From IMG/VR virus record IMGVR_UViG_3300023199_000165, positions 1 to 54,675 of that record: DNA of 54,675 nt; one strand, written 5' to 3'. Positions within the stretch are counted from its first letter, which is position 1, and every line of letters starts with the position of its first letter. A program made the translations under genes and the position numbers. Origin of the DNA: a virus (taxonomy: Duplodnaviria; Caudoviricetes). This document shows, piece after piece, positions 4,752 through 42,692 of this stretch. Below the pieces are notes generated by a model, which was not told the DNA's origin, did no database searches, and saw only the letters and a program-made list of their open reading frames with translations.

Positions 4752-5843
4752 TCAATCAACCGTCCCGTAATTACTGAAAAAAGGTGGAAGGGTCATTCCC
4801 TGGTTCATATTCTCTAATATCCCATCCTCTCTTAAACCAATTGAATTGGCAGCAATATCTTCATCTAACATATTAACATTACTAGAGTTTTCTAACATAT
4901 TGTCTAATATATCTATTACGGTAGATGCCTCTTTGTGTAAGTTACCGTATGAAAGCTTAGTAGCCAGTTTAGTTAGAGTATGAATAACACTAGAAGTTTT
5001 TATATCTGCTGGTGGATCATTATGGTGAAATTTTCTATAATCATACCATTTTGTTCTGCCCTTATTTTTTTGTCTCTCTCTTTCCACTTCTTTTAAAGAT
5101 CGCTCCACTATTTTTTTTACTGTTTCTGTATATGGAGCTTCACCACTTTTTTTATGAACTTCATTAGGAATATCTTCATAATTTTTGCCATATATGTATT
5201 CATCTGGCGACGGCCGTACTTTTGAAACAACTGGCATATTTTTCTCTTTTGGATTATATCCTTTCGGTGCCGGAATAACTTGAACAAGTTCATCAATAGC
5301 CTTGCTCCTCGCATCATCAAAAAATCTTGAATTTTTAGCAAGTTGCTCTATCTTTCCCTGATCTTCTTCCATCTCATTTCTTTCATCTTCAGACATAAGA
5401 TCTAAATCATGATATTTTGGATCTACGGCTGCTCTATCTAAGTATGTCATATTAATTTGATCTATAATTTCTCCAGAAAGTGCGTGACCCAAAGTTGATT
5501 CAAACCCTTTTTCTTTCCAAGAGTTAATTAAAAATCTTTTGGCTTGTTCAGCAGTTGCTCTATTTGGATATAAAGCCTCAATGTCATCCCCAATGGATAA
5601 AAATGTCCAATCTCTTGTATCTCCTTGCGTCTCACTTCTGCGTAACATACAATCTCTAATTGCCTGCTGTAAATTACGCTTTTTAATTTGTTCAACTACT
5701 TTGTCAGCCAAACCTGAAGCTTCAAGCTTCGCTCTTAAACTATCATTACAAATTATATTAACAATTTGATCATCTTTCCACATAGCTGGATCTTCTGCTA
5801 TTGGAAGTGTATTCATAGCCCTCTTACTTAAAATATATTGCAT
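4752..5843 (-). CDS. Hypothetical head-associated protein with N-terminal ILSKRA and C-terminal helical tag
   Basis: 363 aa; begins MQYILSKRA-MNT; LTKLATKLSYGNLHKEASTVIDIL near the C-terminus. Confidence 0.7.
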   Translation of the reverse strand: MQYILSKRAMNTLPIAEDPAMWKDDQIVNIICNDSLRAKLEASGLADKVVEQIKKRNLQQAIRDCMLRRSETQGDTRDWTFLSIGDDIEALYPNRATAEQAKRFLINSWKEKGFESTLGHALSGEIIDQINMTYLDRAAVDPKYHDLDLMSEDERNEMEEDQGKIEQLAKNSRFFDDARSKAIDELVQVIPAPKGYNPKEKNMPVVSKVRPSPDEYIYGKNYEDIPNEVHKKSGEAPYTETVKKIVERSLKEVERERQKNKGRTKWYDYRKFHHNDPPADIKTSSVIHTLTKLATKLSYGNLHKEASTVIDILDNMLENSSNVNMLDEDIAANSIGLREDGILENMNQGMTLPPFFSNYGTVD

Positions 5844-5848
5844 TTTAA

Positions 5849-8800
5849 TTATCTTCCTCCTCCTCCCAGTGGTAGTGGAACAGACATAATTCCCATAGGG
5901 TTATTCCCAATTTCCGCGTGCCAAGGCTCATATGACTCCATAGTTGTCGCAAATGGCTTATCTGACGGTGTGACCGTCAAAGGAGTGCTTTTCCTTTCCT
6001 TTTTAAGTGCCTCAATGGTTGGAATATCCAGCTTTCCTGTTGGATTTAAATGTCTTTGAAGTTGCCATTTTGACAACTCAATTGCGAATTCTCTGCTATT
6101 GGGATCAAGTTTCAAAAAATCTTTATTTGCCGTTTTTATAAAAGATTTAGTGTTATTAGATAATGAGGCATTATGGATTGTAGCTTCCTCAATAGCATTA
6201 AAAGCAGAAACTATCTTATCTGAACAAAGAAGAGTTATTCCCTCTTTTAACATTTCTTTTTCGTTATTTAACAATACATTAGCAACAAACTTTAGGTTTG
6301 GCTCAGTCATAGGTTTATTTGGGAGAAATTTATCCCTTATATCACTTAAAACAGTTGATGCTTGAAGCAAAGAAGCCGTTGTTTGATCCAGCCTTGATTC
6401 AAAAGGCTTCTTAATAACATCAGAGCTTATTTTGTCTGCTAAATTAGCAATATTAACTATAGCCTGATTAAACTGTGCCTTTTCCTCTGGTAGCTTAAAT
6501 TTATAGATATTTGTTTTGTCGTTAAAAACTATATATAATTCTACTTTTCCAAAAAATTCAGCATATTCCTTGTTTTCATTAATCATTAAATGAACAGTTA
6601 ATTTGTCACCTGTAGATTTATTTCCAACTTCAGCAACATATCGGTTTTTCCAAATGTTTCCACTTAAACGTTGAAAAGATAATTTGTTTAATATATAATT
6701 AGGTATTAAACTACCCAACTCCTCTTCTGTTCCAAATGGATTTGATTTCGTATTTTCAATATCACCACTTATAAATGCATTAACATAAAGTGGAATGCTG
6801 TTAATAAGATCACTTACCGTTGCTCTATCCTCTGTTCTCAAGTGCCAAGTATTAACTGGATGACCATCTTGTTTATTATTAGATCTCCACATATCAAAAT
6901 CTTTTTTGAGCTTCTCTATGATTTCAAAAACATCTGATGAAACAGCTATATGATAAATACCACTAAAATTAGCATAACTTAAAATTACTTTAACATTGCG
7001 AATTGAGTTAGTTTCATCTTTAAAAGCCATATTAGCAACAACAAATTCTTTGGTACGGGTTTTTTCAGTTCTTATTATTGACCATTTAAAATCATTATCT
7101 TGATAAGAAAATACGCTCATTATATCCTCTATGCCTTCCGCTCTTTTTGAAAGAGAAGCATCTTTATATCCCAACTCCTCCGCTTTATCATAATAAACTA
7201 AATATTCATCTTCATATTCTTCATCTTCATATTCTTCATATTGATAATTACTTGGTAAGAAAGATTTTCTGTCCTTTGCGTTTATAGTAATAAGGCCAAG
7301 TTCTTCTGCCTGAGCCAAAAATTCTTTTCTATTTGAAATTACTCCTATCAATTCTACCTCTGGGTCTGATGGATTAAGCCATCCTTCTGTTCTTAAAGAC
7401 CCAGAATCCCCTGTATTTGAAATTCTTTTTCCAGTAATTTTGTCTACAAAAGAGCTATTATCACTTTCAGAAAAAGAGACAACAGGTCCTGAGAAAACAA
7501 GACCTAAAAATATTTTTCTAGATTGCTGAAATAAGAAGTCTTCATTTTTTGATACACATATTTCTTCATTTAAATTAGAAAATTTAGTTAAAATTTGTTT
7601 AAAATTATTTTTTACATTATATAAATCTTCATCTGTTAAACGATTAGTATTTATAATGTGTATCCAATTTCCTTCAACATTTTCGTAGTCAATAAACCTC
7701 TCTTTTATTCTAAAACTAACTTTACTTGTATTATATGAAGTATTATCAATATAAATATCATAAACATATTCATATTTATTTAAATAAGAGTTAAATTTTT
7801 CTCTTAAATTTGGATGCGTTGAGAAAATACGAGTAATTAATAGTTTTGTCATTTTAAAAGAGAATTCAACCGTTTCTTCATTGGCTAATCTTTTAATAAT
7901 ATCATCAGTGAAAATTTTTGAAAATTTATCAGTATTTATATTTGGATATATCTTATTTAAATTAAAATAGAAAAATTCTCTACTATTTTTGTTTAAAAGT
8001 TCTTGGGCTTTATTAAACCCTATATCATAATAATAATTATATAAATGATTAGAGAAAAAGTCAATGGGATAAATAGATTTCGCATATTGTTTTCCAAAAT
8101 CAGGATATTTTTCGTGTAATTTAAGTGTATTAAAGACCATATATATATCTTGATCTCGCCTATATTTATTTAAAATTGAATTTAAGGCATCTTCAGTAAA
8201 ATCTGGATGCTCGTAATCTTTGTTTTTTTGAAAAAACTCAAAAGGATGGTCTAATGCCATATACTTGGCTGTTTCTTTATCTTGAATGTAATTTTCTGAC
8301 CGTTTTGATAAAGACCCATAAACATTTTTTTGAAAAAATCCAATATAATTTAAATCTTCCCATTTATCAATGGCAAGAAAATCTTTAATACTTGCTTCTG
8401 TTGTTCCGTCATCTGTTTTTATAACAGCAAGACCGTTTATCGGAGCATTCCTGCTCATAAGAGCATTTTGTACTGCCTTTATAGAAAATGGAGTTTTATC
8501 TGGAAGATCAATGCCATATTGATTTCCCATAATACTCACTCTTGACCATACATCTAATATCTCTTTCTCTATTTTCTTTTTAATAGGGTCTGTAGTATTA
8601 TATTCAATAAAAGTAAATTCATTTTCATTCATAACTTTTGCTTGCTCAGGAGTTAAAAATTCGTTTAATTTTTTAGCAAGTTCTTGATAGTGACTAGAAC
8701 CAGAAGGAACATCTATTACCTCTCCTGTCTCTGTATTAACCCAAAAACCATCAATGTTCATAGCCGTTTTAGAGTAGAGACAAGAAGATGAAATCTTTGG

Positions 8801-10594
8801 CAACTTAGACATAAACTCTTGTTCTTGCCTTTCGGCTTCACCTTCTCCTAGATGAGGATTAGAGAGAATATCTTCTTGCGTCCTTGTTTTCCCTATATGA
8901 CCGCCTTCGTGAGCTATTGTTTCCATTATCGCACGGATAATAGCTAATTGAATATCTCTTTCTGCTCTTCCAGTCAGATGTTGTTTAACATTATTAACGA
9001 TACGATCTTTGAAAATATGAACTTCTCTGGGGTCCTTTCCTGGACCCATTTCAACGTGTCCAAGCTGTCCAGAACCTCCACCTTGATGAACTACAACTTT
9101 TGTTACATTATTAAGCAGTGCTGGATCATATGTTTTCACTCCAACAACTGCCTGTTGTACTAAATTATCTAAAGGTTCAATAACCACATTTGGACTTTGC
9201 GGAATAGGCTTTAAACCTGGAGCATTTATATTGGGGCTTGGAGCAAGGGCTCTTTTGCTTAATGGCTTTTTACCTATTTTAATATTCGCAAAATTTTCTC
9301 CTGCCATTTGGATACGAACAGTATCTGCTTTCCACTCATATTTTTTATCCTTAAAGTCTAAAAATTCAGGCTTATCTTGTGAAAATCCTACAGTCATATG
9401 TGGAACCCATCCGTATTGCGACGGCAAATCAACTAAATTACTCACTACAGTTTCCAATTCTGTCTGTAAAGCACTTAAGCCTTTCGCATTTGGGACTAAG
9501 TAGATAGGAAAGCCATCCTCGCCTGCGTGGAAAAATCCTGATCCAGCAATGCTCATTTTAAGAGGCTCGTGTTTAGAACAAACCTTTTCAACGGCTTTTT
9601 TTATAGCTTCTCTGGTAATTTTATTTAAATCTTTAGCTTCTCCAAGATACAATAAAGTTAAGTGTAGTCCATCAGTAGAAACTGACTCTTCATCAATTAA
9701 ACCTGCTTTTGTTAATCGTTTTAAAATATTATCAGGAAGCATTAACGCAACCATCGCACCCGTATGCTTTTCTTTTTTAGCTTCTGTAATAAAACTTGCC
9801 CTTTTGCTTAAAGGATAAATAGCGGACGCAAGAGTGCCTATTCTACCGTCTTTTAGGTAGTCAGGTTCAAGTGTAGGTATAAGATATTGGTTTTTAAGAG
9901 TTCCAGGCTCGTGCCCAACTTCGGCAGCAGCCAATTCAAGAGCAGATTTAAACTCTTCTTTGAGCTTCTTATCTCTCTCTTTTTCACCCTTTGGTGGAAG
10001 TTTGCCTTTACGCACTTGCTTTAATGCTTTTCGCATTTCTTCATTCGCGTGAAGACCACGAATGTCTTTTGCGGTAATTTTGAATTTTTTTAGATAGGCG
10101 TTAATATTATCAGCGTTAATTGAATAATCATCACCTTTAAATACTTTATCATTCGGCCTTTTGTCTTTTAACAACTCTTTTAAAACTTTTAAAGTTCCTT
10201 TTTCACTAACTGTTTTTTTTTGTTTTACGCCAGATTTACCAACATATTTAATTGTAGCCTTTCCGTCTCTTATAGTGAAATGTTTTTTCATCCAAGTAGT
10301 GACGCCATAATGCTTTAAATTTCGTGCGGACGCAGAATTACCTACTCGCTCATAAGTTTCATCTATGAGTGCTACAGCTAAAGCAGTGTATTTAGTTTTC
10401 AAATCGCCACTTTGTAAATCTTTTCTTATTTGAGAACGCAATTTAGATAAAGATTTAGATAAAGATTTAATTCTTTTCATCTTTTTCTTGTTTCTATTTT
10501 CTATATGTTTTTTGCTGTAAACATAAGTTATATTTCCACTTTCTTCTTTACGCTTCTCAACATAATTTTTAGCTTCACGAATAGATAAAATCAA
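5849..10594 (-). CDS. 1581-aa multidomain polyprotein: DNA topoisomerase IB / 2H phosphoesterase (2'-5' RNA ligase-like) / HExxH zincin-like / unknown domains / C-terminal peptidoglycan-binding-like
   Basis: Topo IB catalytic set ERVGN, VGKSG, KDIR, VGH, NQYL. Two 2H motifs, LHLTL and PHMTV. TIAHEGGH..EGEAE. C-terminal WQLQRHLNPTGKLDIPTIEAL. Domains are separated by LSKRA/LSKRS/YSKTA. Confidence 0.8.
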   Translation of the reverse strand: MILSIREAKNYVEKRKEESGNITYVYSKKHIENRNKKKMKRIKSLSKSLSKLRSQIRKDLQSGDLKTKYTALAVALIDETYERVGNSASARNLKHYGVTTWMKKHFTIRDGKATIKYVGKSGVKQKKTVSEKGTLKVLKELLKDKRPNDKVFKGDDYSINADNINAYLKKFKITAKDIRGLHANEEMRKALKQVRKGKLPPKGEKERDKKLKEEFKSALELAAAEVGHEPGTLKNQYLIPTLEPDYLKDGRIGTLASAIYPLSKRASFITEAKKEKHTGAMVALMLPDNILKRLTKAGLIDEESVSTDGLHLTLLYLGEAKDLNKITREAIKKAVEKVCSKHEPLKMSIAGSGFFHAGEDGFPIYLVPNAKGLSALQTELETVVSNLVDLPSQYGWVPHMTVGFSQDKPEFLDFKDKKYEWKADTVRIQMAGENFANIKIGKKPLSKRALAPSPNINAPGLKPIPQSPNVVIEPLDNLVQQAVVGVKTYDPALLNNVTKVVVHQGGGSGQLGHVEMGPGKDPREVHIFKDRIVNNVKQHLTGRAERDIQLAIIRAIMETIAHEGGHIGKTRTQEDILSNPHLGEGEAERQEQEFMSKLPKISSSCLYSKTAMNIDGFWVNTETGEVIDVPSGSSHYQELAKKLNEFLTPEQAKVMNENEFTFIEYNTTDPIKKKIEKEILDVWSRVSIMGNQYGIDLPDKTPFSIKAVQNALMSRNAPINGLAVIKTDDGTTEASIKDFLAIDKWEDLNYIGFFQKNVYGSLSKRSENYIQDKETAKYMALDHPFEFFQKNKDYEHPDFTEDALNSILNKYRRDQDIYMVFNTLKLHEKYPDFGKQYAKSIYPIDFFSNHLYNYYYDIGFNKAQELLNKNSREFFYFNLNKIYPNINTDKFSKIFTDDIIKRLANEETVEFSFKMTKLLITRIFSTHPNLREKFNSYLNKYEYVYDIYIDNTSYNTSKVSFRIKERFIDYENVEGNWIHIINTNRLTDEDLYNVKNNFKQILTKFSNLNEEICVSKNEDFLFQQSRKIFLGLVFSGPVVSFSESDNSSFVDKITGKRISNTGDSGSLRTEGWLNPSDPEVELIGVISNRKEFLAQAEELGLITINAKDRKSFLPSNYQYEEYEDEEYEDEYLVYYDKAEELGYKDASLSKRAEGIEDIMSVFSYQDNDFKWSIIRTEKTRTKEFVVANMAFKDETNSIRNVKVILSYANFSGIYHIAVSSDVFEIIEKLKKDFDMWRSNNKQDGHPVNTWHLRTEDRATVSDLINSIPLYVNAFISGDIENTKSNPFGTEEELGSLIPNYILNKLSFQRLSGNIWKNRYVAEVGNKSTGDKLTVHLMINENKEYAEFFGKVELYIVFNDKTNIYKFKLPEEKAQFNQAIVNIANLADKISSDVIKKPFESRLDQTTASLLQASTVLSDIRDKFLPNKPMTEPNLKFVANVLLNNEKEMLKEGITLLCSDKIVSAFNAIEEATIHNASLSNNTKSFIKTANKDFLKLDPNSREFAIELSKWQLQRHLNPTGKLDIPTIEALKKERKSTPLTVTPSDKPFATTMESYEPWHAEIGNNPMGIMSVPLPLGGGGR

Positions 10595-10929
10595 ATTCCT
10601 TCTCCTGGAGAACTTAATAGCCTCGCCAATTCAATTAAAACCTGCTGAATAAAAGCCGGATTTAGCCCGCTCAGCAGGTTTTTTGTTAAACCAACGGATT
10701 GTCCAATCACTGAAGAGGGGGGCATTGTTTTACTACCAACTTCCCCTGGGTTAATTCGTATAATTTTGCCTTTAATGCGAGCTAAAAAGCGACTTCTGTC
10801 CTCTCTCGGCACCCGATAAAATACAAACTGCATTATTTTCAATATACTTTCCGCAGTTCTTCTGGCAGCAATATCCTTATTGTAAACCTCTGCCCTTTTA
10901 GAGATTGGAAGGTCTCTAATAGACAACAT
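10591..10929 (-). CDS. Hypothetical protein with N-terminal LSIR..ISKRA leader
   Basis: 112-aa ORF overlapping the downstream start (ATGA). Confidence 0.7.
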   Translation of the reverse strand: MLSIRDLPISKRAEVYNKDIAARRTAESILKIMQFVFYRVPREDRSRFLARIKGKIIRINPGEVGSKTMPPSSVIGQSVGLTKNLLSGLNPAFIQQVLIELARLLSSPGEGI

Positions 10930-10937
10930 AATTCACC

Positions 10938-11300
10938 TTATTTACAGTATTTTTTAGGCAATGCTTTACAAGCTGCTCTTAAAGCCTTGTTCTCAGGATC
11001 CTTTTGTCCCTTCTCTTTGACTTTTTTAAGAGTTTCTTTATAAGTCTGCTTAAACTTATTAAGAGTTCTTGCGGGACAATTCATCTTTTTAAGATGTCTT
11101 AGCCACTGAGCATAAGTTTTTAAAGGAACTTTAGCCGCTTCACGAATAATTCCGTCAAGCTTGTTAGCTGCTTCAAAATACCCCTTTTTGTCAAAAGCAT
11201 CAGCAATGTCTGCTAATTTTTCCAAATCATTTTTATCATTGCTTTTTAGAATATCTAAAAGCTTAACTCTTGCCTCTTTTGATAATTTATCAAAACTCAT
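10938..11300 (-). CDS. Basic hypothetical protein with helical tag motif
   Basis: LADIADAFDKKGYFEAANKLDGII. Confidence 0.7.
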   Translation of the reverse strand: MSFDKLSKEARVKLLDILKSNDKNDLEKLADIADAFDKKGYFEAANKLDGIIREAAKVPLKTYAQWLRHLKKMNCPARTLNKFKQTYKETLKKVKEKGQKDPENKALRAACKALPKKYCK

Positions 11301-11788
11301 TTTTGTTCTCCTTTATTAAAATAATCCCACCAATTTTTAAATTCTCTTGGAGGACTTATGGCTGAGGTTAATATAAACCCAGATTTTAATATATTTTCGA
11401 ATTCTTTCATTTTTGAATATTCAAAGTTGTTTTCATCAATAATTCCAACTAAATATTTTTGTTTGAGCAGTTTAGCCATTTTATATGCTTTTTCAGCAGA
11501 TATTTTATACCTATGTTTAGTTGAACATTTACTAAATTTTTTAAATTCTAAGATTTTTGGAAGCAACTCATCAATATTATCTGCCATTTCATATTCGCCA
11601 TTTTTATCTAGAATATCTGCTATTTGTCTTAACTCAACTGTAGCTTTTTTAATATTTTCCTTAAACATATGCTCCATACAAGTTGTTAAAGCATCAGCTA
11701 AATATATATTACCAGTCTTATCCATTTTATCAATTATAGAAAGTAATTTTTTAACTATTTGTTTTTGTTCTAATAAATTAGTTTTCAT
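11297..11788 (-). CDS. Hypothetical protein with two helical tag motifs
   Basis: LLSIIDKMDKTGNIYLADAL and LRQIADILDKNGEYEMADNIDELL. Confidence 0.7.
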   Translation of the reverse strand: MKTNLLEQKQIVKKLLSIIDKMDKTGNIYLADALTTCMEHMFKENIKKATVELRQIADILDKNGEYEMADNIDELLPKILEFKKFSKCSTKHRYKISAEKAYKMAKLLKQKYLVGIIDENNFEYSKMKEFENILKSGFILTSAISPPREFKNWWDYFNKGEQK

Positions 11789-12093
11789 TTTCTAGTTGCT
11801 CTCTTATTCACAGCTGTCGGTCTGCGAGTTATAGATGTGAAAACAGCCTGATAATATTCAAAATCTGGTTGCCAAAAAAGAGAAATAGCATCTCCATTTA
11901 TATATAAAGTCCCATTGTCAGGAATTTCAAAAACAATTATATTGTCCTCTACTTCTTTTACAAATCCACGAAAATACTCCTTATTTGCCGCCCACGATTC
12001 AGAATAAGTCAAGGTTTCAGCTTCCTCTCCTAAATAAATACATAATTCTTGATCTATAAAGCGATTTTTAATAAAATTGGCAGAACCCATCAT
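11785..12093 (-). CDS. Small beta-rich protein, possibly Sm/LSm-like fold
   Basis: FRGFVKEVEDNIIVF..LYINGDAISLF pattern; AAGGAG SD. The fold call is weak. Confidence 0.5.
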   Translation of the reverse strand: MMGSANFIKNRFIDQELCIYLGEEAETLTYSESWAANKEYFRGFVKEVEDNIIVFEIPDNGTLYINGDAISLFWQPDFEYYQAVFTSITRRPTAVNKRATRK

Positions 12094-12119
12094 AACTCCT
12101 TAATTTTAATATTCTATTA

Positions 12120-15100
12120 TTAATAGTCTCTAAATGATAGAATATAATTGGATTTCTTAATTTGACCTTGAGATAAATACTCTTCCAGCCTTTTTAAGGC
12201 TTCAGAAGGGTCGGAAGTTTCAGAAGATATTTTCTCTGTCCTCTCTAGCACCATTTTCCAAAACTCTGGATCTGGATTGTCTTCACTACTCAGAACCAGT
12301 CTGCCAAACTTTTCGAAGAATTTTTCCTTATCATTGTCGCTTCTTACCTCGTGCATCATTCTAATAGGTTTCCACCTGTAATCTCCAGGTATTATATATG
12401 CCTGAACTAATAAATACTCTCCATCATATAAAGTAGTATCTTCTTTATTAAACTTTAATGTATGATAATTATAGTCTATAATCTCATCAACCTTATTATC
12501 TTTCTCCTTTAAAATTTTAAATTTTATTTCCTCAGGAACTGCTACCTCTCCATTTAAAATTCTAGGATATTTTTCTTTTATATTAATAACTTCTTCTGGA
12601 TTTAGTTTCCAAGCACCAAGAACTTTCATTATTCTTGGTTTTTTAGAAGAATTTTTTCTTAGAGGCTTGCCATCTTTATTTAATTTTAATTTAAGATTAC
12701 AGCTAGCGTGGAAATCATCTCCATTTTTAACTTTAGTTATAAAAAATGTCCCTTCCTCACCATTTGATGGAATTCCATCAGTTTTTTCATTAACTAAAAA
12801 TGAATTTAATCCATAAATTTGAAATCCATTTTTTACTCGTAGCATTCTATCTAACCAAGAGCGAAGCAAAGGTATATAGAAATCTGCTCTATTTTCCTTA
12901 GTTGAGCGTTTTATTTTTTTCTTTCTTTTAATAACCATTCCATCTTTTTCAATTTTTTCATAATATGAATATTTTGAAAGCCAAGCAATGAATAGGTCTC
13001 TATTTTTTTCTGAAAAATCTTTTATCTCATCATACAGAGCCATAAGTCTTAAATTACTTTGATGTTTTTTTGAATATTTAATTTTAGAAACATCTTGCCC
13101 AGAGTTAATCATTTCAGCTAAAACTGAAGAGAATTTTTTTGTTAGACGTCTGTGCTTAATATCCAAAATACTTTTAGCATATTCGGCATATTTATCATAA
13201 AGAATATCTAGATGCTGATCTGCCTCTTGTTCAGACTTATCTGATACTCCAGGAACTCCTTCATCTATTACAGATGGCTGAGAAATCCAAATTGATCTCA
13301 TATAAGGATCCCATATTAGCCCGCCTCTACCCATAGGTCCTTTGCCCCAAGCCTCTCTTGGCGTAAATCTAGAACCATCGTGTGGACAGATAAAAGGAAC
13401 GTCCCATATTGCTTTAGCAGGAAGTCTTCTTTTATTATCTGGCACGTCATCAGCCTCACTGCCTTTCCCCTGCCAAGGAGGAACAATATCATACTCTTTT
13501 TTAAAATATCTTAAAGCCTTTTTTCCTGCCTCAGTATCCCAAAAGCTTTGTCTTTTTTCCTCACTCCAGTCTATGGAGTTTAGAGGAATTTTTTGTCCCG
13601 GACAATTTTCATTAATACATATTAAATGTAATGTTGGAACACCAGTCTGATTTGAAAATAGTTTATAATCTTTTTCTACTTCAGATATTTCATTTTTAAG
13701 CATCTCGTTACGAATTAATAGCTCGTCTTTATATTTCTTTTTAGTATATAGCCTTTGTAGGTGCCTATTTTCCTGTTCCTCATCCTCTGAAATAGATAGT
13801 CTTTTATTTAATCCATTAATTACATTATCAACCTGGGCAATTTCCATTCTCAATCGCTTGTGATTTGATTTTAGATCTGAAAGTTTGCTTTCTGCCGTTT
13901 CCGCATATTTTTTACAATTTGGGCAAGACCAAGTGTTTTTAGACTTACTATCTTTTTCCATTATATTTGAAAAGGCGCCCTTTGCTGCTTTTGCTCTACA
14001 TATAGAACATTCTGGCAAACGCTTTTCAATTAAATCTCTTTCTTTAGCAATAACTTTAGTCATAGAGTTATTTAAAGCCTTATATAAATAATTCGGCAAT
14101 AAATACTGGTGCTTTTTATTTTCATCACTAAGATAAGTATTTAAAATGTCTGCGAAAAAAGTTAAAGCATATTTTTTATAAGTTAGAGCTGATGGCAAGT
14201 TTCTTATATTATGATTATCTAGTCGCTTTTGTAATAAATTGTTTTCTTTTTCTAATTGAGCAATAACTTTTTTGTTGGGGCTTTTCTTAGATTTTTCTCT
14301 TTGTAATTTGGACCCAATATTTTCTAAAGCAATTTGAAGCTCTTCTCTTATTTCTTTAAATCTATCATATTCATTTGGCTCAAGCATTGTAAATACACCA
14401 CGAGCCATTGTTCCAGCAATATTGTTATTTAGCCATCTCTTTGCGATATTAATTGTTAAAGAAGGATATATCCAATTTTTAAGAATTTCGTCTCTATTTT
14501 CTTCTTCATCTAGTATTTGCCAAGTATCTGGTTTAGCAAAAACTCTTGTTGTCGCATAACCATCTTTAAAATTTTCTACAGAAAAAAGCTCTTTCGCTTT
14601 ATCAGACATTTCTGGCATAATTATATCATCAGCAGAAGGCCAGTCTTCATAAGGCTCAAAAGAAAATCCATATATAGTTTTTCTATTTTGAAGTTTTAAA
14701 ATTTTGGTCATAGTTTCGTGGGGAGTTTCTTCTCCATCCACTATCTTTTTTTTTAAATTTTTTAAATCATTAGATGAAAGTTTTAGAGAGTCTGGTTCCG
14801 CTTCTGTAAGTTCTTTAAAATCCTCAGCATCTTCAACTGTGTCAAAATCACTTACATCTTCAAGAGTACTAGCCTCATTTACTTTTTTTTTTATATTTTT
14901 ATTTCCTTGTGAAGTAAATTTTTTTTCTATCTCTTTAAGTCTAGATTCTTGAGTTTTAAGTTCTGAGTCTATTTCATTATGCCATTTCCTAACGTCTTCT
15001 TCTGAAATTTTATCTTTTCCAGAAATCATTTCTTTTCCAATTGATTTTGAAAATTCATCAGCTCGCTGACTATCTTCTAAACTCAACTTTCCTTCTCCAC

Positions 15101-17813
15101 TTTCGCCAAATAATGAAATAGCATCTTCATAATTAACTTTGTCTGTATATACAATCCTGCCTTTGATAATGTTTCTAATTATAGCAATTCTATCTAGCCT
15201 TTCTTTTAACTTATCCTTTTTAACTATAATTTCCTGTAAAGTTTTTTTGTATTCGTCTAAACTATCTTTTTCCTCTATAACTTCTTCTTCATTTTCCTCT
15301 GGAACTTCTTCTTCATTTTCCTCTGGAACTTCTTCTTTAGTTTCCTCTGGAACTTCTTCTTTAGTTTCCTCTGGAGATTTTGATTCTTCATCTGAAATCC
15401 CCAACATAGAAAATAAATCAGAACTATCTTCATCTTCTTCATCTTCTTCAATATTTTTTAAATCTGAAAGCATTTTTTGAAGTTCAGTATCGCCACTATC
15501 TCCCTTTACATCAGGATCCATTAAATCTTTAAAAGAATCAACAGATTTCTTTTTTTCTTCAATAATTTCCTCAGGAACACTTACATCAGGCTTTGTCTCT
15601 TCTTTTTCTGGCAAAGGAGAAACTATTTTTCTTCTTTTTGGTTTCTTCTCCACAATTGGCTCTTTTTTCTTTTCTTCAACAGGTTCCTCATCAACAACAA
15701 TTTCTTCAGGAGATAATACCTCATCGCCCCAATCTAAGCCTTGCTGCCTAAGCCATTCATCTCCTGGATCGTTTTCATTAGAAACTTCCTCTGATTTAAG
15801 CCTCTCATATTCTTCTGGATTTTCAAATTTAATTCTTTGTAGATTTGGATCATCTTCCAATTCATCCGCAAATTTCCACAGCTCTTTTAAATCCATAGCA
15901 TATGATACTTTATCCTTAATCTCTGAAACAAGTATTTCTGCTAAATGTTCTGGCTCAACATTATATCCAGTAATTAATTCATCATCTTTTTCAAAAGGAA
16001 CCTCTCTTGAAGCAGTTTTGTAAGATGAAAATTTATCATTAATTGCCTCATTTGTCATAATGGCAATTGGACAAATTGAGTTAGATATAATATCTCTAAT
16101 GCTATTTAAAAAAGTTATATCATTACCAACAATATAAATTCCATTATAACCATTGTTGCTATATAGATCATTAGACATATTTATAATATTGCCATTTTCG
16201 GAAATAGCACTTGAATTTATTGAAGCGGTAGATACTGATATATTATTTCTCTCAAAAGCATCTTTTGCTTTAAAGTATTCTTTATCATTGAACACTGGTG
16301 GTACGATCATTAAAACTTTTTTCATAGCTCTAGAGGAAAGGAAATCATCATCAACTGCGTTATAAGAATAAGGTTCGGTAGGAGCAACCGCCTGATATGG
16401 CGATTGTCTTATTACGCCTCCCTCACCTAATGGATGAGGATCAGTTCCGTGCCGATTTCCAAAATCATTGTTATTATAAACATCATCAACTTTTTGGTCA
16501 TTTGCTAAATCAAACCTTATAATATAAAACTTATGATCATCGCCAAACCTTTGTTCCAAACCATCGGCTGTTCTATCACCATAGGCTTTTCTAATTCTAT
16601 CTGTATTCATAACTGACTTATCAATTATTTTAAGATTAAAAGGATGGGCTCCGCCATATGTTTTACACCTAACAACTTCATTTACATTAACAGGAACATC
16701 ATTTGCTCTAATTGTGTATCGACGTTTCCCTGAACGAATATCTTCAACATATTGCGATGGAAAAAATAGCGTTCCAGGCTCATTAAAATTAGCTCGTTTT
16801 GATAACAAAGAAGCAGTTGTTGGCTTGGGTATAGAATTCCAATTTTCTATAACCCATTCACTAATGATTTTCGTATTATAAGACCAAAACTCATCTTCAG
16901 TTATTTTTTGACCCAATTGTTCCTCATACTCTGCCCAAGCAGTATCTCTTAATCCCTTATCATATTTAAAAATACTGCGTAGCTTATTAACGGTGTCATT
17001 TAAAACAGCAATAAACTCTTCTCGCTTTATTCCTTTTAAATCATATTGGACTTCTTCGGTTATAGGATGTTGTGAAAATTCAGTTCTTGCCTCTTCAAAA
17101 TCTGTTTGATCAGGAGAAAATTCAATTACCCCTTCTTGAAAAGTTTCATCAGCCCTTTTGCTTAAAGAAAACTCATAAGATGTTTCACTAGATTTTAGAA
17201 TTTTTTGAATAGTTCTTAATCTTTTTAAAGAACTACTCTCATAGGCTCCTGGAGAAGCCGTATACCACCCATCTCTTCCAAGCTGACGGAAAAACATAGG
17301 ATCTCCAGACAGAAGTAGGGCTCTGCTTTTGGCATATCTTTTTCTACTTAGTACTTGTAAAACTCCTCTTACTCCATCAACAAAAGATCTATATGCTCTA
17401 AAATAACGTGGGCGCCTCTCTATACACTTTCCTTTAGGACACTTGTTTGAAGGTTTTAGCCCTTTGCGACAAGGAACGCATTCATCAGATAGGACTGATG
17501 TATAATATCTTCTTTTTTTCCAACCATCACCAGCTTTTATTCCAGCAAGGTTATAGTTCATTACTCTCTTGCCCCACCCAGTCTCGTGAGCGGTAAAGGC
17601 TGTTATTAATTTGGCAGAAGCAGGAGATAATCCAAATTTAATGGCGGCATTATAAACCTTTATAGTGAAATCTTCCTTTCCTTTAAAAGAATTCCACGAT
17701 AAACTAATGCGATTCTTCGTCCCACCTTTGTTCTTATATAATAATTTTAGAATTTCTTCTAATTTGCCCCCGTTTTTTACCAAAACTTCGGCTATTTTGT
17801 CAATAAATAACAC
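12120..17813 (-). CDS. 1897-aa multidomain polyprotein: GH73 (FlgJ/glucosaminidase-like) peptidoglycan hydrolase / acidic domain / ASCH-like / DJ-1(PfpI)-like / acidic coiled coil with Zn ribbons
   Basis: AHETGWG..NYNLAGIKA..FRAY..GWYT (GH73). LFFPSQYVEDIRSGKRRYTIR (ASCH). MKKVLMIVPPVFNDKEY..YNGIYIVG (DJ-1-like). CSIC/CPNC/CINENC/CPHD. Junctions are LSKRA, LSKRA and LSSRA. Confidence 0.75.
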   Translation of the reverse strand: MLFIDKIAEVLVKNGGKLEEILKLLYKNKGGTKNRISLSWNSFKGKEDFTIKVYNAAIKFGLSPASAKLITAFTAHETGWGKRVMNYNLAGIKAGDGWKKRRYYTSVLSDECVPCRKGLKPSNKCPKGKCIERRPRYFRAYRSFVDGVRGVLQVLSRKRYAKSRALLLSGDPMFFRQLGRDGWYTASPGAYESSSLKRLRTIQKILKSSETSYEFSLSKRADETFQEGVIEFSPDQTDFEEARTEFSQHPITEEVQYDLKGIKREEFIAVLNDTVNKLRSIFKYDKGLRDTAWAEYEEQLGQKITEDEFWSYNTKIISEWVIENWNSIPKPTTASLLSKRANFNEPGTLFFPSQYVEDIRSGKRRYTIRANDVPVNVNEVVRCKTYGGAHPFNLKIIDKSVMNTDRIRKAYGDRTADGLEQRFGDDHKFYIIRFDLANDQKVDDVYNNNDFGNRHGTDPHPLGEGGVIRQSPYQAVAPTEPYSYNAVDDDFLSSRAMKKVLMIVPPVFNDKEYFKAKDAFERNNISVSTASINSSAISENGNIINMSNDLYSNNGYNGIYIVGNDITFLNSIRDIISNSICPIAIMTNEAINDKFSSYKTASREVPFEKDDELITGYNVEPEHLAEILVSEIKDKVSYAMDLKELWKFADELEDDPNLQRIKFENPEEYERLKSEEVSNENDPGDEWLRQQGLDWGDEVLSPEEIVVDEEPVEEKKKEPIVEKKPKRRKIVSPLPEKEETKPDVSVPEEIIEEKKKSVDSFKDLMDPDVKGDSGDTELQKMLSDLKNIEEDEEDEDSSDLFSMLGISDEESKSPEETKEEVPEETKEEVPEENEEEVPEENEEEVIEEKDSLDEYKKTLQEIIVKKDKLKERLDRIAIIRNIIKGRIVYTDKVNYEDAISLFGESGEGKLSLEDSQRADEFSKSIGKEMISGKDKISEEDVRKWHNEIDSELKTQESRLKEIEKKFTSQGNKNIKKKVNEASTLEDVSDFDTVEDAEDFKELTEAEPDSLKLSSNDLKNLKKKIVDGEETPHETMTKILKLQNRKTIYGFSFEPYEDWPSADDIIMPEMSDKAKELFSVENFKDGYATTRVFAKPDTWQILDEEENRDEILKNWIYPSLTINIAKRWLNNNIAGTMARGVFTMLEPNEYDRFKEIREELQIALENIGSKLQREKSKKSPNKKVIAQLEKENNLLQKRLDNHNIRNLPSALTYKKYALTFFADILNTYLSDENKKHQYLLPNYLYKALNNSMTKVIAKERDLIEKRLPECSICRAKAAKGAFSNIMEKDSKSKNTWSCPNCKKYAETAESKLSDLKSNHKRLRMEIAQVDNVINGLNKRLSISEDEEQENRHLQRLYTKKKYKDELLIRNEMLKNEISEVEKDYKLFSNQTGVPTLHLICINENCPGQKIPLNSIDWSEEKRQSFWDTEAGKKALRYFKKEYDIVPPWQGKGSEADDVPDNKRRLPAKAIWDVPFICPHDGSRFTPREAWGKGPMGRGGLIWDPYMRSIWISQPSVIDEGVPGVSDKSEQEADQHLDILYDKYAEYAKSILDIKHRRLTKKFSSVLAEMINSGQDVSKIKYSKKHQSNLRLMALYDEIKDFSEKNRDLFIAWLSKYSYYEKIEKDGMVIKRKKKIKRSTKENRADFYIPLLRSWLDRMLRVKNGFQIYGLNSFLVNEKTDGIPSNGEEGTFFITKVKNGDDFHASCNLKLKLNKDGKPLRKNSSKKPRIMKVLGAWKLNPEEVINIKEKYPRILNGEVAVPEEIKFKILKEKDNKVDEIIDYNYHTLKFNKEDTTLYDGEYLLVQAYIIPGDYRWKPIRMMHEVRSDNDKEKFFEKFGRLVLSSEDNPDPEFWKMVLERTEKISSETSDPSEALKRLEEYLSQGQIKKSNYILSFRDY
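15279..15374. repeat. 24-bp tandem repeat x4 encoding PEE(T/N)(K/E)EEV
   Basis: AACTTCTTCTT(CAT/TAG)TTTCCTCTGG units at 15279, 15303, 15327 and 15351. Confidence 0.9.
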
Positions 17814-19113: not shown

Positions 19114-19372
19114 TTCCTCCAGAAGTCTTTCTTTTTTCTGCCATTTTAATATTTAATTCTATCTCCCTTGCCTCTTTCTCAGCAATTGTAAACAATGCTG
19201 ATAGCTGCCTTACTCTCTCTTTTGCTAATCTCTCCTGCTTTTTCCATTCAGAAATTGCTATAGATATTTTTTGTCTTAATTTAAATGCCTGAGAAAATTT
19301 GCCCTTTTTAACAAGAGTTTTCATTTTATTATGCCATAATTGACAGTTTTTTTGAAATTTATGGTTGTTCAT
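19097..19372 (-). CDS. Hypothetical basic coiled-coil protein
   Basis: 91-aa ORF overlapping both neighbours. Confidence 0.6.
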   Translation of the reverse strand: MNNHKFQKNCQLWHNKMKTLVKKGKFSQAFKLRQKISIAISEWKKQERLAKERVRQLSALFTIAEKEAREIELNIKMAEKRKTSGGNDEQK

Positions 19373-24873: not shown

Positions 24874-24875
24874 TT

Positions 24876-27078: not shown

Positions 27079-27086
27079 ATTTCTCC

Positions 27087-42682: not shown

Positions 42683-42692
42683 TACTTATCCA

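What the first reader, a model, noticed from the sequence alone, without database searches (positions are those of the whole stretch)
5817..17165. Enzyme polyproteins punctuated by a repeated LSKRA linker: candidate protease-processed capsid cargo system
Seen: L/I-S-K-R-A or a close variant occurs ten times in four nearby ORFs, at 17151-17165, 16791-16805, 16326-16340 (LSSRA), 10891-10905 (ISKRA), 9797-9811, 9248-9262, 8762-8776 (YSKTA), 8297-8311 (LSKRS), 7139-7153 and 5817-5831. Where both flanking domains are recognisable it sits at the boundary (topo IB|2H|zincin; GH73|acidic|ASCH|DJ-1). In three cases it is followed directly by a Met that looks like the start of a captured gene (SSRA-MKKVL, SKTA-MNIDG, SKRA-MNTLP). 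The codons vary between copies (TTA/CTT, AGC/TCA/AGT, AGG/AGA/CGA/CGG), so conservation is at the peptide level. Known: T4 gp21 and phiKZ gp175 cleave head proteins at short motifs, and herpesvirus assemblins of the same protease fold cut after Ala. Inference: these are cargo polyproteins cut by the prohead protease encoded just downstream, releasing separate enzymes for ejection into the host, in a cassette format that accepts new domains.
Basis: partly seen in the sequence, partly recalled or inferred. Interest (0 to 1): 0.92.

Follow-up and report, generated by a model that had tools for sequence, protein, structure and literature searches.

The report
Megaphage enzyme chains with cut-here linkers
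An uncultured relative of the giant Bacillus phage G strings unrelated enzymes into two huge head-gene proteins whose joints all carry the same short peptide (L-S-K-R-A), most likely the place where the phage's capsid protease cuts them apart, though no cut has been measured.

Summary
All ten motifs lie at the stated coordinates in four minus-strand ORFs. Exact LSKRA occurs 6 times against 0.03 expected, and the codons differ between copies.

The motif is not private to this contig. In 23 of the 26 closest topoisomerase-IB homologues from huge-phage contigs, [LIF]-S-[KR]-R-A recurs 1-6 times. Conservation covers P7-P1 (F-P-L-S-K-R-A) and stops after the Ala.

Sites lie between domains:
- 0 of 27 sites fall inside Pfam stretches.
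- 3 of 3 testable sites fall in low-confidence AlphaFold linkers.

Modules are shuffled, fused or split exactly at the motif.

A T4-gp21-like prohead protease fused to a scaffold lies just downstream. It follows the topoisomerase protein in 43 of 80 related loci.

Best reading (about 0.6): these are head-loaded polyvalent proteins cut after Ala by the prohead protease. Cleavage, packaging and ejection are all unshown.

Open points:
- The embedded zincin is a live rival.
- ASCH and DJ-1 labels were not confirmed.
- Evidence from the scaffold and major capsid protein is mixed.

This scan reported similar K/R-x-A polyproteins on at least 8 other genomes. I found no published description of the motif.

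The parts
12120..17813 (-). Polyprotein A, 1897 aa. Predicted products: A1 GH73 glucosaminidase (aa 1-221), A2 acidic segment (222-341), A3 (342-496), A4 (497-1897, includes a conserved Cys-rich C-terminal region).
   Evidence: ORF. GH73 from Pfam. Three motif sites. Homologues in G001, L007, L004 and P0096.
17151..17165 (-). LSKRA site 1 of polyprotein A (aa 217-221), 35 residues after the end of the GH73 match.
16791..16805 (-). LSKRA site 2 of polyprotein A (aa 337-341).
   Evidence: The orthologous site in L004 reads PMYKRA|S.
16326..16340 (-). LSSRA site 3 of polyprotein A (aa 492-496), followed directly by Met (MKKVLMIV).
   Evidence: A weak DJ-1 match starts at model position 1, at residue 2 after the site (E 0.035, below threshold).
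12123..12146 (-). C-terminal relic YILSFRDY at the end of polyprotein A. It aligns with an internal LSKRA site of the longer G001 homologue.
   Evidence: Local alignment KKSNYILSFR versus KKSSFKLSKR(A).
10591..10929 (-). 112-aa protein with a 13-residue N-terminal leader, MLSIRDLPISKRA. In other phages its module is fused into polyproteins.
   Evidence: Fused in P0003, P0004, P0007 and in the G003 ORF at 389203.
10891..10905 (-). ISKRA site that ends the leader of the 112-aa protein.
5849..10594 (-). Polyprotein B, 1581 aa. Predicted products: B1 topoisomerase IB (1-266), B2 2H phosphoesterase (267-449), B3 zincin-like (450-611), B4 (612-766), B5 (767-1152), B6 (1153-1581).
   Evidence: AlphaFold domains at 7-253, 276-444 and 467-601. 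Foldseek matches to variola TopIB (8e-13) and LigT/CPDase (3e-7).
10571..10594 (-). N-terminal LILSIREA of polyprotein B, a degenerate copy of the leader. In relatives SKRA sits two residues before the conserved Tyr of the topoisomerase domain.
   Evidence: P0004 has IFKRA at exactly this junction, fused to the 112-aa module.
9797..9811 (-). LSKRA between topoisomerase IB and 2H (aa 262-266).
   Evidence: Lies in the low-pLDDT linker 254-275.
9248..9262 (-). LSKRA between 2H and the zincin-like module (aa 445-449).
   Evidence: Lies in the low-pLDDT linker 445-466.
8762..8776 (-). YSKTA after the zincin-like module (aa 607-611), followed by Met.
   Evidence: Lies in the low-pLDDT stretch 602-637.
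8297..8311 (-). LSKRS (aa 762-766). This is the weakest copy (Ser at P1), and its structural context could not be tested.
   Evidence: Residues 679-800 are all below pLDDT 50 and no homologues of B4 were found.
7139..7153 (-). LSKRA (aa 1148-1152), after an acidic EYEDEEYEDEY stretch.
4752..5843 (-). 363-aa protein with a 9-residue leader MQYILSKRA, followed by Met.
   Evidence: Comparable leaders MFYLSKRA, MIYLSKRA and MLSKRA occur in homologues.
5817..5831 (-). LSKRA that ends the leader of the 363-aa protein.
2..3154 (-). Prohead protease (about aa 1-260; His147, Ser198 in VSMG, Cys-rich insert) fused to a scaffold-like region. The frame runs off the contig end. It is the candidate processing enzyme.
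   Evidence: PHROG head maturation protease 5.6e-12. Alignment of 25 homologues. Best structural match T4 gp21 5jbl, Z 7.7, rmsd 3.4, 134 residues aligned. 15 Phi-x-[KR]-x-A sites against 3.0 expected.

Best explanation
The two giant ORFs and their two small neighbours are head-module 'polyvalent' proteins of a megaphage related to Bacillus phage G. Each module (peptidoglycan hydrolase, topoisomerase IB, 2H phosphoesterase, small zincin, several unknowns) ends with, or is preceded by, the peptide (F)-(P)-[L/I/F]-S-K-R-A.

I read this as a proteolytic maturation site cut after the Ala. It is a lineage-frozen version of a broader Phi-x-K/R-x-Ala signal used in this phage group. The most likely enzyme is the T4-gp21/assemblin-type prohead protease encoded just downstream. 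That protease would release the separate enzymes inside the prohead, ready for delivery with the DNA.

Shown here:
- The motif is non-random and conserved as a peptide across phages.
- It sits in linkers.
- It marks the points at which modules are swapped, fused or split.
- The genes lie in a conserved portal-to-protease module.

Inferred: that the site is cut, that the cut falls after Ala, that the prohead protease does it, and that the products are packaged and ejected.
For: 1. Non-random: exact LSKRA 6 observed against 0.027 expected, with varied codons.

2. Conserved elsewhere:
- 23 of the 26 nearest homologues carry 1-6 copies; only 3 of 67 more distant ones have SKRA.
- A polyprotein-A homologue, P0096, has LSKRA at aa 15 and 431.

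3. Profile of 87 sites from 30 proteins:
- Information content is P7 1.3, P6 1.5, P5 2.5 bits.
- Every prime-side position is at or below 0.71 bit. This fits recognition of the non-prime side and a cut after Ala.
- 11 of the sites end N-terminal leaders with P1 at aa 6-17.
- Cutting at the motif gives 133 segments: 17 of 6-17 aa, none of 18-56 aa, and 116 of at least 57 aa.

4. Sites lie between domains:
- 0 of 27 sites in 7 homologues fall inside Pfam stretches that cover 27% of residues (p about 2e-4).
- AlphaFold on aa 1-800 of polyprotein B gives three confident domains. The three testable sites lie in segments below pLDDT 50.

5. Sites are equivalent to gene boundaries and cassette joints:
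- The 2H module is bounded by the motif on both sides in P0006 and P0009.
- The zincin module starts 1-5 residues after a motif in 6 other proteins.
- The 112-aa module is a separate ORF here but is fused in P0003, P0004, P0007 and G003.
- P0004 has IFKRA where this window has a stop and restart.
- The C-terminus of polyprotein A aligns with an internal LSKRA of G001.

6. The site persists while its sequence drifts:
- L004 (protease 64% identical) has LFVRNA, PLSAKA, PLCKHA, PMYKRA and NRKVA at orthologous joints.
- The distant clade uses R-V-A-[AS]-[RK]-[YFW] at the same position before topoisomerase IB. That motif gives 167 hits on the gene strand against 3 on the opposite strand in 80 loci, some of which are near-duplicates.

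7. Link to the prohead protease:
- It lies downstream of the topoisomerase protein in 43 of 80 loci.
- Its best structural match is T4 gp21 (Z 7.7), followed by herpesvirus proteases (Z 4.5-5.9).
- Its N-terminus (M-x-[FI]-[LVM]-[KR]-[YF]-A) resembles the cargo leaders. Clade-B proteases carry [VI]-R-x-A-[SAG] near aa 25.
- The generic Phi-x-[KR]-x-A occurs 15 times against 3.0 expected in this window's protease-scaffold (0 of 1000 shuffles reach 15). It is the only one of 47 ORFs at p<=0.005. The reversed pattern and patterns with other P1 residues are flat.
- G003's capsid protein has a 45-aa N-terminal extension containing IVKYA.

8. In the complete 442-kb genome G003, 9 of 12 exact sites are in frame on the gene strand. 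They form two clusters, one directly upstream of the protease.
Against: - No cleavage product, virion proteome or expression data exist for this clade.
- The exact LSKRA is absent from the protease-scaffold protein, the portal and the G003 capsid protein.
- The generic Phi-x-[KR]-x-A motif carries little information. Its scaffold enrichment is weaker in G001 (11 against 4.2, p 0.008) and absent in G003 (7 against 4.9, p 0.22).
- Clade-B capsid proteins have no N-terminal extension and no motif.
- A conserved zincin-like module sits inside the polyproteins and could be the processing enzyme instead. Iyer et al. 2017 proposed this for polyvalent proteins (passages read).
- Motif-like relics at protein termini (YILSFRDY-stop, LILSIREA) and clade-B copies about 13 residues from C-termini suggest a binding or tagging role as well as, or instead of, cleavage.
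- The 1401-aa A4 product has no further strict site although it clearly holds several regions.
- The protease model is of low confidence (mean pLDDT 57) and Foldseek gave only E 0.068.
Confidence: 0.6

Rival explanations
1. The motif is a cleavage site, but the enzyme is the zincin-like metallopeptidase module embedded in polyprotein B (aa 450-611, HEGGH). It would process the polyvalent proteins in cis or trans, before packaging, inside the head, or after injection.
For: - Iyer et al. 2017 proposed exactly this role for MPTase domains in polyvalent proteins (passages read).
- The module is a confident AlphaFold domain with a language-model lead to M85/GtgA/Tox-MPTase3 families (0.90).
- It is conserved in 10 motif-bearing relatives (8 distinct proteins; P0005 is identical to the G001 ORF), including G001, G003 and L004.
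Against: - BLAST found no zincin homologue in the clade-B loci, which still have motif-punctuated proteins and the protease. BLAST sensitivity and the 10-kb flanks limit this point.
- Conservation lies only on the non-prime side with a small P1. This is typical of serine proteases of the assemblin type rather than zincins, which usually read P1' (recalled general knowledge, not tested here).
- Motif-like leaders occur on the prohead protease itself.
- There is no HMM or PDB sequence support for the zincin assignment.
Confidence: 0.13
2. The motif is mainly a docking or capsid-targeting tag, read by the scaffold, portal or protease. It loads each module or protein into the prohead and is not necessarily cut.
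For: - Copies or relics sit at extreme termini, where cutting would achieve little: YILSFRDY-stop, LILSIREA, and clade-B RVAAR[FY] about 13 residues from C-termini.
- 11 N-terminal leaders of 6-17 aa resemble the T4 capsid targeting sequence (CTS function taken passages and from recall).
Against: - A tag alone does not explain why the motif coincides with stop/start gene boundaries in relatives, or why native-looking Met starts follow it.
- It does not explain why conservation ends abruptly at Ala.
- In T4 the targeting sequence is also cut, so the two roles can coexist.
Confidence: 0.15
3. The sites are cut by a host protease, or the motif is a recombination or fusion scar without function.
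For: Nothing specific. No host is known for the contig.
Against: - The motif co-varies with phage lineage: LSKRA, degenerate P-Phi-x-K-x-A, or RVA[AS]R[YFW]. It does not follow any host signal that I could see.
- Codons vary, so it is not a DNA-level scar.
- P7-P5 are conserved beyond the anchor residues.
Confidence: 0.04

Closest known systems
Polyvalent proteins of phages and conjugative elements (Iyer, Burroughs, Anand, de Souza, Aravind 2017, PMC5512222; passages read)
   Same: - Very long phage proteins join unrelated conflict and entry enzymes (lysozyme-type hydrolase, 2H, metallopeptidase).
- They are encoded among virion genes.
- They are predicted to travel with the DNA and to be processed into separate units.
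   Different: - That work proposes autoprocessing by the embedded MPTase.
- In the passages I read it defines no cut-site motif.
- 'Topoisomerase' occurs once in its main text.
- Here a sharply defined, lineage-specific linker peptide, short leaders on neighbouring small proteins, and linkage to a prohead protease gene are described.
Prohead-protease processing of head and ejection proteins in T4, phiKZ, 201phi2-1 and SPN3US (PMC10052503, passages read; T4 L/I-x-E recalled)
   Same: - A gp21-type protease in the head module cuts many internal head proteins at one short consensus.
- Short N-terminal propeptides occur (20-24 aa in SPN3US gp45 and gp225; about 10 aa for the T4 CTS, recalled).
- The protease also cuts itself.
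   Different: - Those proteases cut after Glu (A-x-E in SPN3US). Here the conserved last residue is Ala and P3 is Lys or Arg.
- Known substrates lose propeptides. They are not chains of unrelated enzymes separated by repeated sites.
Herpesvirus assemblin maturation and release sites (consensus with Ala at P1 and Ser at P1'; recalled, not checked in a paper here)
   Same: - The protease fold class is the same as T4 gp21, and herpesvirus proteases are the next structural matches (Z 4.5-5.9).
- Ala is at P1.
- The protease is fused to a scaffold.
   Different: - P1' is not conserved here: Ala 18, Glu 13, Lys 10 of 87.
- P3 is basic rather than hydrophobic.
- The substrates are cargo enzymes.
Bacillus phage G (Donellivirus gee), the only cultivated megaphage (PMC12484599, passages read)
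   Same: - It is the closest cultured relative. Its gp19 protease is 32% identical over 78% of the query.
- Its gp27 capsid protein is 56% identical to the capsid protein of G003, a clade-A relative of this window.
- Its gp20 starts MSKKISRLKKTA.
   Different: - tblastn found no topoisomerase-IB polyprotein in phage G.
- Its portal-to-protease interval holds only small ORFs.
- No cut sites are reported in the passages I read.

Membership tests
Phage-type polyvalent proteins (Iyer et al. 2017) | One polypeptide joins several unrelated enzymatic or binding domains (2-15). | tested here: met
   GH73, topoisomerase IB and 2H by Pfam. Three separate confident domains in AlphaFold. Homologues add SET, CCA/poly(A) polymerase+HD, ASCH, PAP2, RNA ligase, GNAT and NUDIX.
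Phage-type polyvalent proteins (Iyer et al. 2017) | Encoded by a phage among late or virion genes. | tested here: met
   Gene order is terminase, portal, polyprotein A, polyprotein B, protease-scaffold. A protease lies downstream in 43 of 80 related loci.
Phage-type polyvalent proteins (Iyer et al. 2017) | Zincin-like MPTase domain commonly present. | tested here: inconclusive
   HEGGH motif, a confident 135-residue domain and an ESM lead of 0.90. No Pfam or PDB sequence hit.
Phage-type polyvalent proteins (Iyer et al. 2017) | Delivered into the host with the DNA. | not testable with these tools
   No virion proteome exists for this clade.
Substrates of a T4-gp21-type prohead protease | A protease of the gp21/assemblin fold with a Ser-His active site is encoded in the head module. 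| tested here: met
   PHROG head maturation protease 5.6e-12. Invariant His147 and Ser198 in 25 sequences. Best match 5jbl, Z 7.7, rmsd 3.4, 134 aligned. The model is weak (pLDDT 57) and Foldseek gave E 0.068.
Substrates of a T4-gp21-type prohead protease | The same consensus marks cargo, scaffold, the protease itself and the capsid protein. | tested here: inconclusive
   The generic Phi-x-[KR]-x-A is enriched in the scaffold of the window (15 against 3.0) and of G001 (p 0.008), but not of G003 (p 0.22). Leader-like N-termini occur on the proteases. IVKYA occurs in the G003 capsid extension. Clade-B capsid proteins have no motif. Exact LSKRA is found only in cargo proteins.
Substrates of a T4-gp21-type prohead protease | Cut after Glu (L/I-x-E in T4, A-x-E in the phiKZ group). 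| tested here: not met
   The conserved last residue is Ala, by construction in all 87 anchor sites. The variants also end in Ala. This would therefore be a different specificity within the same kind of system.
Substrates of a T4-gp21-type prohead protease | Processed products are observed in particles. | not testable with these tools
   This needs mass spectrometry or N-terminal sequencing.
T4-type capsid targeting sequence | A short N-terminal leader ends in the protease site. | tested here: met
   11 leaders have P1 at aa 6-17, including MQYILSKRA and MLSIRDLPISKRA in this window.
T4-type capsid targeting sequence | The leader is sufficient to load a protein into the prohead. | not testable with these tools
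   Experimental only.

The most novel reading that the evidence does not exclude
Phage-G-like megaphages use an evolvable 'cut-here' code: Phi-x-K/R-x-Ala, frozen as FPLSKRA in this lineage and as RVA[AS]R[YFW] in another. The code doubles as the loading signal, with the prohead protease acting as both receptor and scissors. Any enzyme gene that lands next to the motif then becomes capsid cargo, and gene fusion or fission at the motif is selectively neutral. This would be a natural plug-and-play system for packaging arbitrary proteins into a capsid. It would also explain how these phages deliver a whole enzyme kit (cell-wall hydrolase, topoisomerase IB, RNA-end and nucleotide-signal phosphodiesterase, metalloprotease) at the moment of infection.
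Probability: 0.3. Interest if true: 0.8.

Novelty: new variant of a known kind. Interest (0 to 1): 0.66.

Why it matters
If the reading is right, several things follow.

- The motif gives the first explicit sequence rule for how polyvalent virion proteins are taken apart. The founding paper left this step to an assumed embedded metallopeptidase.
- It predicts the mature ends of a dozen proteins in this phage, and of hundreds in related megaphages.
- It points to a gp21-family protease with an Ala-specific, Lys-at-P3 site. That lies closer to herpesvirus assemblins than to T4.
- It explains the rampant domain shuffling: fusion and fission at the motif cost nothing.
- It offers a short tag that could be tested for loading foreign proteins into large capsids.
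- It makes a poxvirus-like strategy, a virion-carried topoisomerase IB, testable in bacteriophages. Phage G is the cultivable entry point.

Tried and rejected
Searches and tests that led nowhere, or that count against my reading:

- Near-identity DNA search of the region against 50,697 phage records gave no match.
- The search for related loci with polyprotein B alone gave no confirmed relative. The alignment-based scan then worked.
- Pfam on the whole protease-scaffold ORF gave 0 families. The Pfam HK97 capsid family (PF05065) gave 0 of 2 matches in G001 and G003. The capsid protein was found only through phage G gp27.
- PDB sequence searches gave nothing meaningful for the zincin-like module (best E 1.5), for A3 (chance-level antibody hits) or for the first 180 aa of A4 (0 hits).
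- The ESM Atlas gave only 0.79 for A3, with one cluster that is 33% ASCH. I therefore do not endorse the ASCH and DJ-1 labels.
- Foldseek on the protease model gave no match at E<=0.001. The gp21 assignment rests on VIA Z 7.7, the PHROG hit and the invariant Ser and His.
- PHROG scans of the eight G001 ORFs downstream of the protease gave no capsid hit.
- Simple 4-mer counting on raw ORFs of the 80 loci was swamped by spurious high-GC frames and was abandoned.
- L004 showed no LSKRA at all. I first took this as a counter-example. Inspection showed degenerate P-Phi-x-K/R-x-A at the orthologous joints.
- A second homologue search, with the C-terminal half of polyprotein A, returned only 1 relative besides the window's own protein.
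- Clade-B capsid proteins lack any extension or motif, and G003's scaffold shows no enrichment. Both count against a universal capsid/scaffold code.
- I considered a 2A/StopGo-type co-translational separation and a DNA-level recombination scar. I rejected the scar because codons vary; the 2A idea I dropped only from recalled knowledge that LSKRA does not resemble 2A peptides, which I did not test.

Not run, or not seen:
- Complex prediction was not used, because an enzyme with its substrate peptide is a poor case for it and the protease model is weak.
They may hold peptide-level data that bear on cut sites.

Papers:
- PMC5512222, PMC7824862, PMC10052503 and PMC12484599: passages only.
- All other papers: search listings only.
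- 'Not in print' rests on searches.
Full report
**What is there.** All recognisable genes of the 54.7-kb contig lie on the minus strand. In the direction of transcription the relevant stretch runs as follows:
- large terminase (23038-24903)
- portal (19898-23023, with an inserted endonuclease-like region)
- an endonuclease VII/HNH gene, then two small or unknown ORFs
- polyprotein A (12120-17813, 1897 aa)
- four small ORFs (10591-12093)
- polyprotein B (5849-10594, 1581 aa)
- a 363-aa ORF and a 214-aa ORF
- two homing-endonuclease fragments
- a frame of more than 1051 aa (2-3154) that runs off the contig

The N-terminal ~260 residues of that last frame match PHROG 'head maturation protease' (5.6e-12). 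The rest is scaffold-like: coiled, acidic and repetitive. Replication genes (DNA polymerase, UvsX, primase) lie further upstream. The assembly held for this window is the contig alone.

**The observation.**
- Exact LSKRA occurs six times against 0.027 expected from the composition of the 18,287 aa of minus-strand ORFs.
The only hit outside the four ORFs is ISKTS in an HNH endonuclease.
- 2000 within-protein shuffles never exceeded 1 (exact) or 4 (loose) hits.
- The codons differ from copy to copy.

So the repeat is real and is selected at the peptide level.

**It is a clade property.** A search with polyprotein B found 94 multi-domain proteins that share its topoisomerase IB domain. They come from contigs of up to 460 kb, and their partner domains vary widely: SET, CCA/poly(A) polymerase with HD, PAP2, RNA ligase, GNAT, NUDIX, ASCH and 2H.
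- In 23 of the 26 nearest homologues, [LIFMVY]-S-[KR]-[RK]-A recurs one to six times.
- Among the 67 more distant homologues only 3 contain SKRA.
- An independent homologue of polyprotein A (P0096, 40% identical) has LSKRA at residues 15 and 431.
- No cultured phage carries the topoisomerase protein. tblastn found only one uncultured 485-kb phage and a distant match in Pseudomonas phage PaBG.

**Anatomy of the site.** I collected 87 SKRA/SRRA sites from 30 proteins: 4 of the window, 23 database homologues and 3 ORFs of the related genome G003.
- The free positions upstream are conserved: P7 Phe in 31 of 86 (1.3 bit), P6 Pro in 45 of 87 (1.5 bit), P5 Leu/Ile/Phe in 86 of 87 (2.5 bit).
- No position after the Ala exceeds 0.71 bit.
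- Eleven sites end N-terminal leaders with the Ala at residue 6-17, for example MFYLSKRA, MLSKRA and, in this window, MQYILSKRA and MLSIRDLPISKRA.
- Cutting all sequences at the motif gives 133 segments with a bimodal size distribution: 17 of 6-17 aa, none of 18-56 aa, and 116 of 57 aa or more.

Recognition confined to the non-prime side, with a small P1, is what a serine protease site cut after Ala would look like. This is inference from general protease knowledge.

Three sites in the window are followed directly by Met. A weak DJ-1 match begins at model position 1, one residue after LSSRA. This fits cutting between Ala and the next residue.

**Sites lie between domains.**
- In the window the significant Pfam matches each sit inside one inter-motif segment: GH73 at 66-182 of segment 1-221, topoisomerase IB at 29-235 of 1-266, and 2H at 39-148 of its 183-residue segment.
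- In seven homologues, 0 of 27 sites fall inside Pfam stretches that cover 27% of residues (chance about 2e-4). The sites lie 7-37 residues before the next domain and 14-35 after the previous one.
- The three Pfam domains of the CCA-adding enzyme are never separated by a site.
- AlphaFold2 on residues 1-800 of polyprotein B, with a 22-row alignment, gave three confident domains: 7-253, 276-444 and 467-601.
- The segments below pLDDT 50 (254-275, 445-466, 602-637) contain the sites at 262-266, 445-449 and 607-611.
- Residues 679-800 were uniformly of low confidence, so the site at 762-766 is untested.
- Foldseek matched the first two domains to variola topoisomerase IB (8e-13) and to LigT/CPDase (3e-7).

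**Sites are cassette joints and are interchangeable with gene boundaries**.
- The 2H module is bounded by the motif on both sides in P0006 (alignment covers 1-179 of a 179-residue segment) and in P0009.
- The zincin-like module begins 1-5 residues after a motif in six other proteins. In G003 it heads a separate ORF behind the leader ...KLPISKRA.
- The module of the window's 112-aa ORF is fused into longer proteins in P0003, P0004, P0007 and G003.
- In P0004 the sequence IFKRA stands exactly where the window has the stop of the 112-aa ORF and the overlapping start of polyprotein B.
- Polyprotein A ends ...KKSNYILSFRDY-stop where the 2861-aa G001 homologue reads ...KKSSFKLSKRA and then continues with two more modules.

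**The place is conserved even where the letters drift.**
- L004, whose protease is 64% identical, has no LSKRA. At orthologous joints it carries:
  - LFVRNA|KYID before topoisomerase IB
  - PLSAKA after topoisomerase IB
  - PLCKHA|Q before the zincin
  - PMYKRA|S before A3
  - NRKVA|H as a leader
- The distant clade uses R-V-A-[AS]-[RK]-[YFW]. This again stands two residues before the conserved Tyr of topoisomerase IB. It also occurs as N-terminal leaders and sometimes about 13 residues from the C-terminus.
- In the 80 fetched loci that pattern occurs 167 times in ORFs on the gene strand and 3 times on the other strand. Several loci are near-duplicates.
- The common denominator is Phi-x-K/R-x-Ala. 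FPLSKRA is one lineage's frozen version of it.

**Which protease?** Three lines of evidence point to the prohead protease.

*Position.*
- A homologue of the window's protease follows the topoisomerase protein on the same strand in 43 of 80 loci.
- In G001 and G003 the 70-73% identical protease-scaffold genes lie directly downstream of motif-bearing ORFs.
- In the complete 442-kb G003 genome, 12 exact [LIF]SKRA codings were found, of which 9 are in frame on the gene strand.
- Those 9 form two clusters, at 249-257 kb (topoisomerase protein and a small leader-bearing ORF) and at 389-396 kb (next to the protease). The other three are out of frame, on the opposite strand, or in a 51-codon frame.

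*Fold.*
- The protease model is poor (mean pLDDT 57) and Foldseek gave only E 0.068.
- The best VIA alignment is T4 gp21 (5jbl, Z 7.7, rmsd 3.4, 134 residues).
- Herpesvirus proteases score Z 4.5-5.9, interleaved with unrelated MCE-domain chains at Z 5-6.

*Substrate-like features on canonical substrates.*
- Protease N-termini read M-x-[FI]-[LVM]-[KR]-[YF]-A in both clades, which resembles the cargo leaders.
- About 20 of 22 clade-B proteases have [VI]-R-x-A-[SAG] near residue 25 (my count by eye).
- The generic Phi-x-[KR]-x-A occurs 15 times in the window's protease-scaffold ORF against 3.0 expected (0 of 1000 shuffles reach 15). It is the only one of 47 ORFs at p<=0.005.
- The reversed pattern and patterns with Glu, Ser or Gly at P1 are not enriched.
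- The same test is weaker in G001 (11 against 4.2, p 0.008) and null in G003 (7 against 4.9, p 0.22).

*Capsid protein.* I found it only through phage G gp27.
- In G003 it is 56% identical to gp27 and has a 45-residue N-terminal extension containing IVKYA.
- Clade-B capsid proteins have no extension and no motif.
- In G001 the gene is broken up by endonuclease-bearing inserts, so I could not read its N-terminus.

The link to the prohead protease is therefore plausible but not settled.

**The main rival.** The alternative enzyme is the zincin-like module B3.
- It has HEGGH, a confident fold and a language-model lead to small effector-type metallopeptidases.
- It is conserved in the LSKRA lineage.
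- It is the enzyme that Iyer et al. assumed.
- BLAST did not find it in the clade-B loci, but that test has limited reach.

**A tagging role.** Relics at protein ends and the clade-B copies near C-termini make a docking or targeting function likely in addition to cutting, as with the T4 targeting sequence. They do not displace the cutting hypothesis, given the equivalence between sites and gene boundaries.

**Comparison with what is known.**
- These are polyvalent proteins in the sense of Iyer et al. 2017.
- The processing logic matches T4, phiKZ and SPN3US head maturation, where one protease cuts many head proteins at one short consensus (A-x-E in SPN3US). The specificity differs: Ala rather than Glu.
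- The substrates are also different in kind: chains of unrelated enzymes rather than proteins that lose a propeptide.
- The nearest cultivated relative is Bacillus phage G (protease gp19, 32% identity; capsid protein 56% identical to that of G003). Its published multi-omics paper reports no cut sites in the passages I read.
- My literature searches found no description of the LSKRA or RVAAR[YFW] linkers.
- Within this scan, follow-up agents reported comparable topoisomerase-IB head polyproteins with K/R-x-Ala linkers on at least eight other genomes, including the RVAxR[YWF] element. I reached the same patterns from my own calls before reading those notes. They are AI notes, not independent evidence.

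**Verdict.**
- Well supported by comparative and structural-prediction evidence: a processing site that separates cassette-like enzyme modules.
- Moderately supported: the prohead protease as the enzyme.
- Inferred only from gene context and from the nature of the enzymes (a cell-wall hydrolase and a poxvirus-type topoisomerase): packaging and ejection.

I rate it a new variant of a known kind, with interest 0.66.

Noticed in passing
window 19898-23023 (-): The portal ORF is 1041 aa. The portal PHROG matches cover only residues 604-915 (best match 604-878). Residues 230-520 hit a ribonucleotide-reductase PHROG, and the stretch from about 225 to 602 looks like an inserted intein/LAGLIDADG-type element (it begins ...ECVRSC and ends ...VHNC).
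   Followed up: no
window 3214-3839, 19369-19896, 25939-27090, 28646-29527, 40246-41178, 41567-42685 (all -): The density of homing-endonuclease-like genes (HNH, endonuclease VII, LAGLIDADG) is unusually high. Two fragments lie between the cargo genes and the protease. In the relative G001 the capsid gene itself is split into at least three pieces by LAGLIDADG-bearing inserts.
   Followed up: partly
window 11297-11788, 10938-11300, 17830-19113 (-); also G001 and G003 ORFs downstream of the protease: A second shared element, a roughly 20-residue helical tag of the form (I/L)AD-x-LD-x-x-G-x4-A-x-x-(I/L)D, occurs on otherwise unrelated small head-module proteins, for example IADILDKNGEYEMADNIDELL and IADAFDKKGYFEAANKLDGII. 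It may be a scaffold- or capsid-binding tag.
   Followed up: no
window 1180-1790 (-), within ORF 2-3154: The scaffold part holds two copies of a module of about 75 aa (AYHxGGGGVN[ED]P...GMEPGNDG[LM]HPGY...). Each is preceded by K-x-A and followed by KK(M/K)L(S/L)RA. The module is conserved in G001, G003 and L004.
   Followed up: partly
window 2-3154 (-), protease aa 208-224: The protease family carries a Cys-x2-Cys...Cys-x-His insert that is invariant or nearly so in 25 homologues. T4 gp21 does not have it as far as I recall.
   Followed up: no
window 12123-14700 (-), C-terminal part of polyprotein A: A conserved region of about 850 aa with several Cys-x2-Cys pairs (for example CSICRAK...CPNCKKY, CINENCPG, ICPHDG) is shared with G001, L007, L004 and P0096. 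It has no family assignment. It is the most conserved part of polyprotein A and has no strict cut site.
   Followed up: no
loci L005-L080 and proteins P0028-P0094: Besides RVA[AS]R[YFW], the distant clade has a second recurrent element, LSLN[FY]K[KR][VIL]A. It is often about 10 residues upstream of an RVAAR[YW] copy.
   Followed up: no
window 31451-32230 (-): A CCA/poly(A)-type nucleotidyltransferase is a free-standing gene here. In relatives (P0013, P0014) the same enzyme family is a motif-bounded module inside the topoisomerase polyprotein.
   Followed up: no
L092 (Bacillus phage G) 14806-15294: Phage G gp20, just after the protease gene, starts MSKKISRLKKTA. The protease gp19 has 7 Phi-x-K-x-A sites in 300 aa. 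This suggests that the generic signal exists in the cultivable relative.
   Followed up: partly
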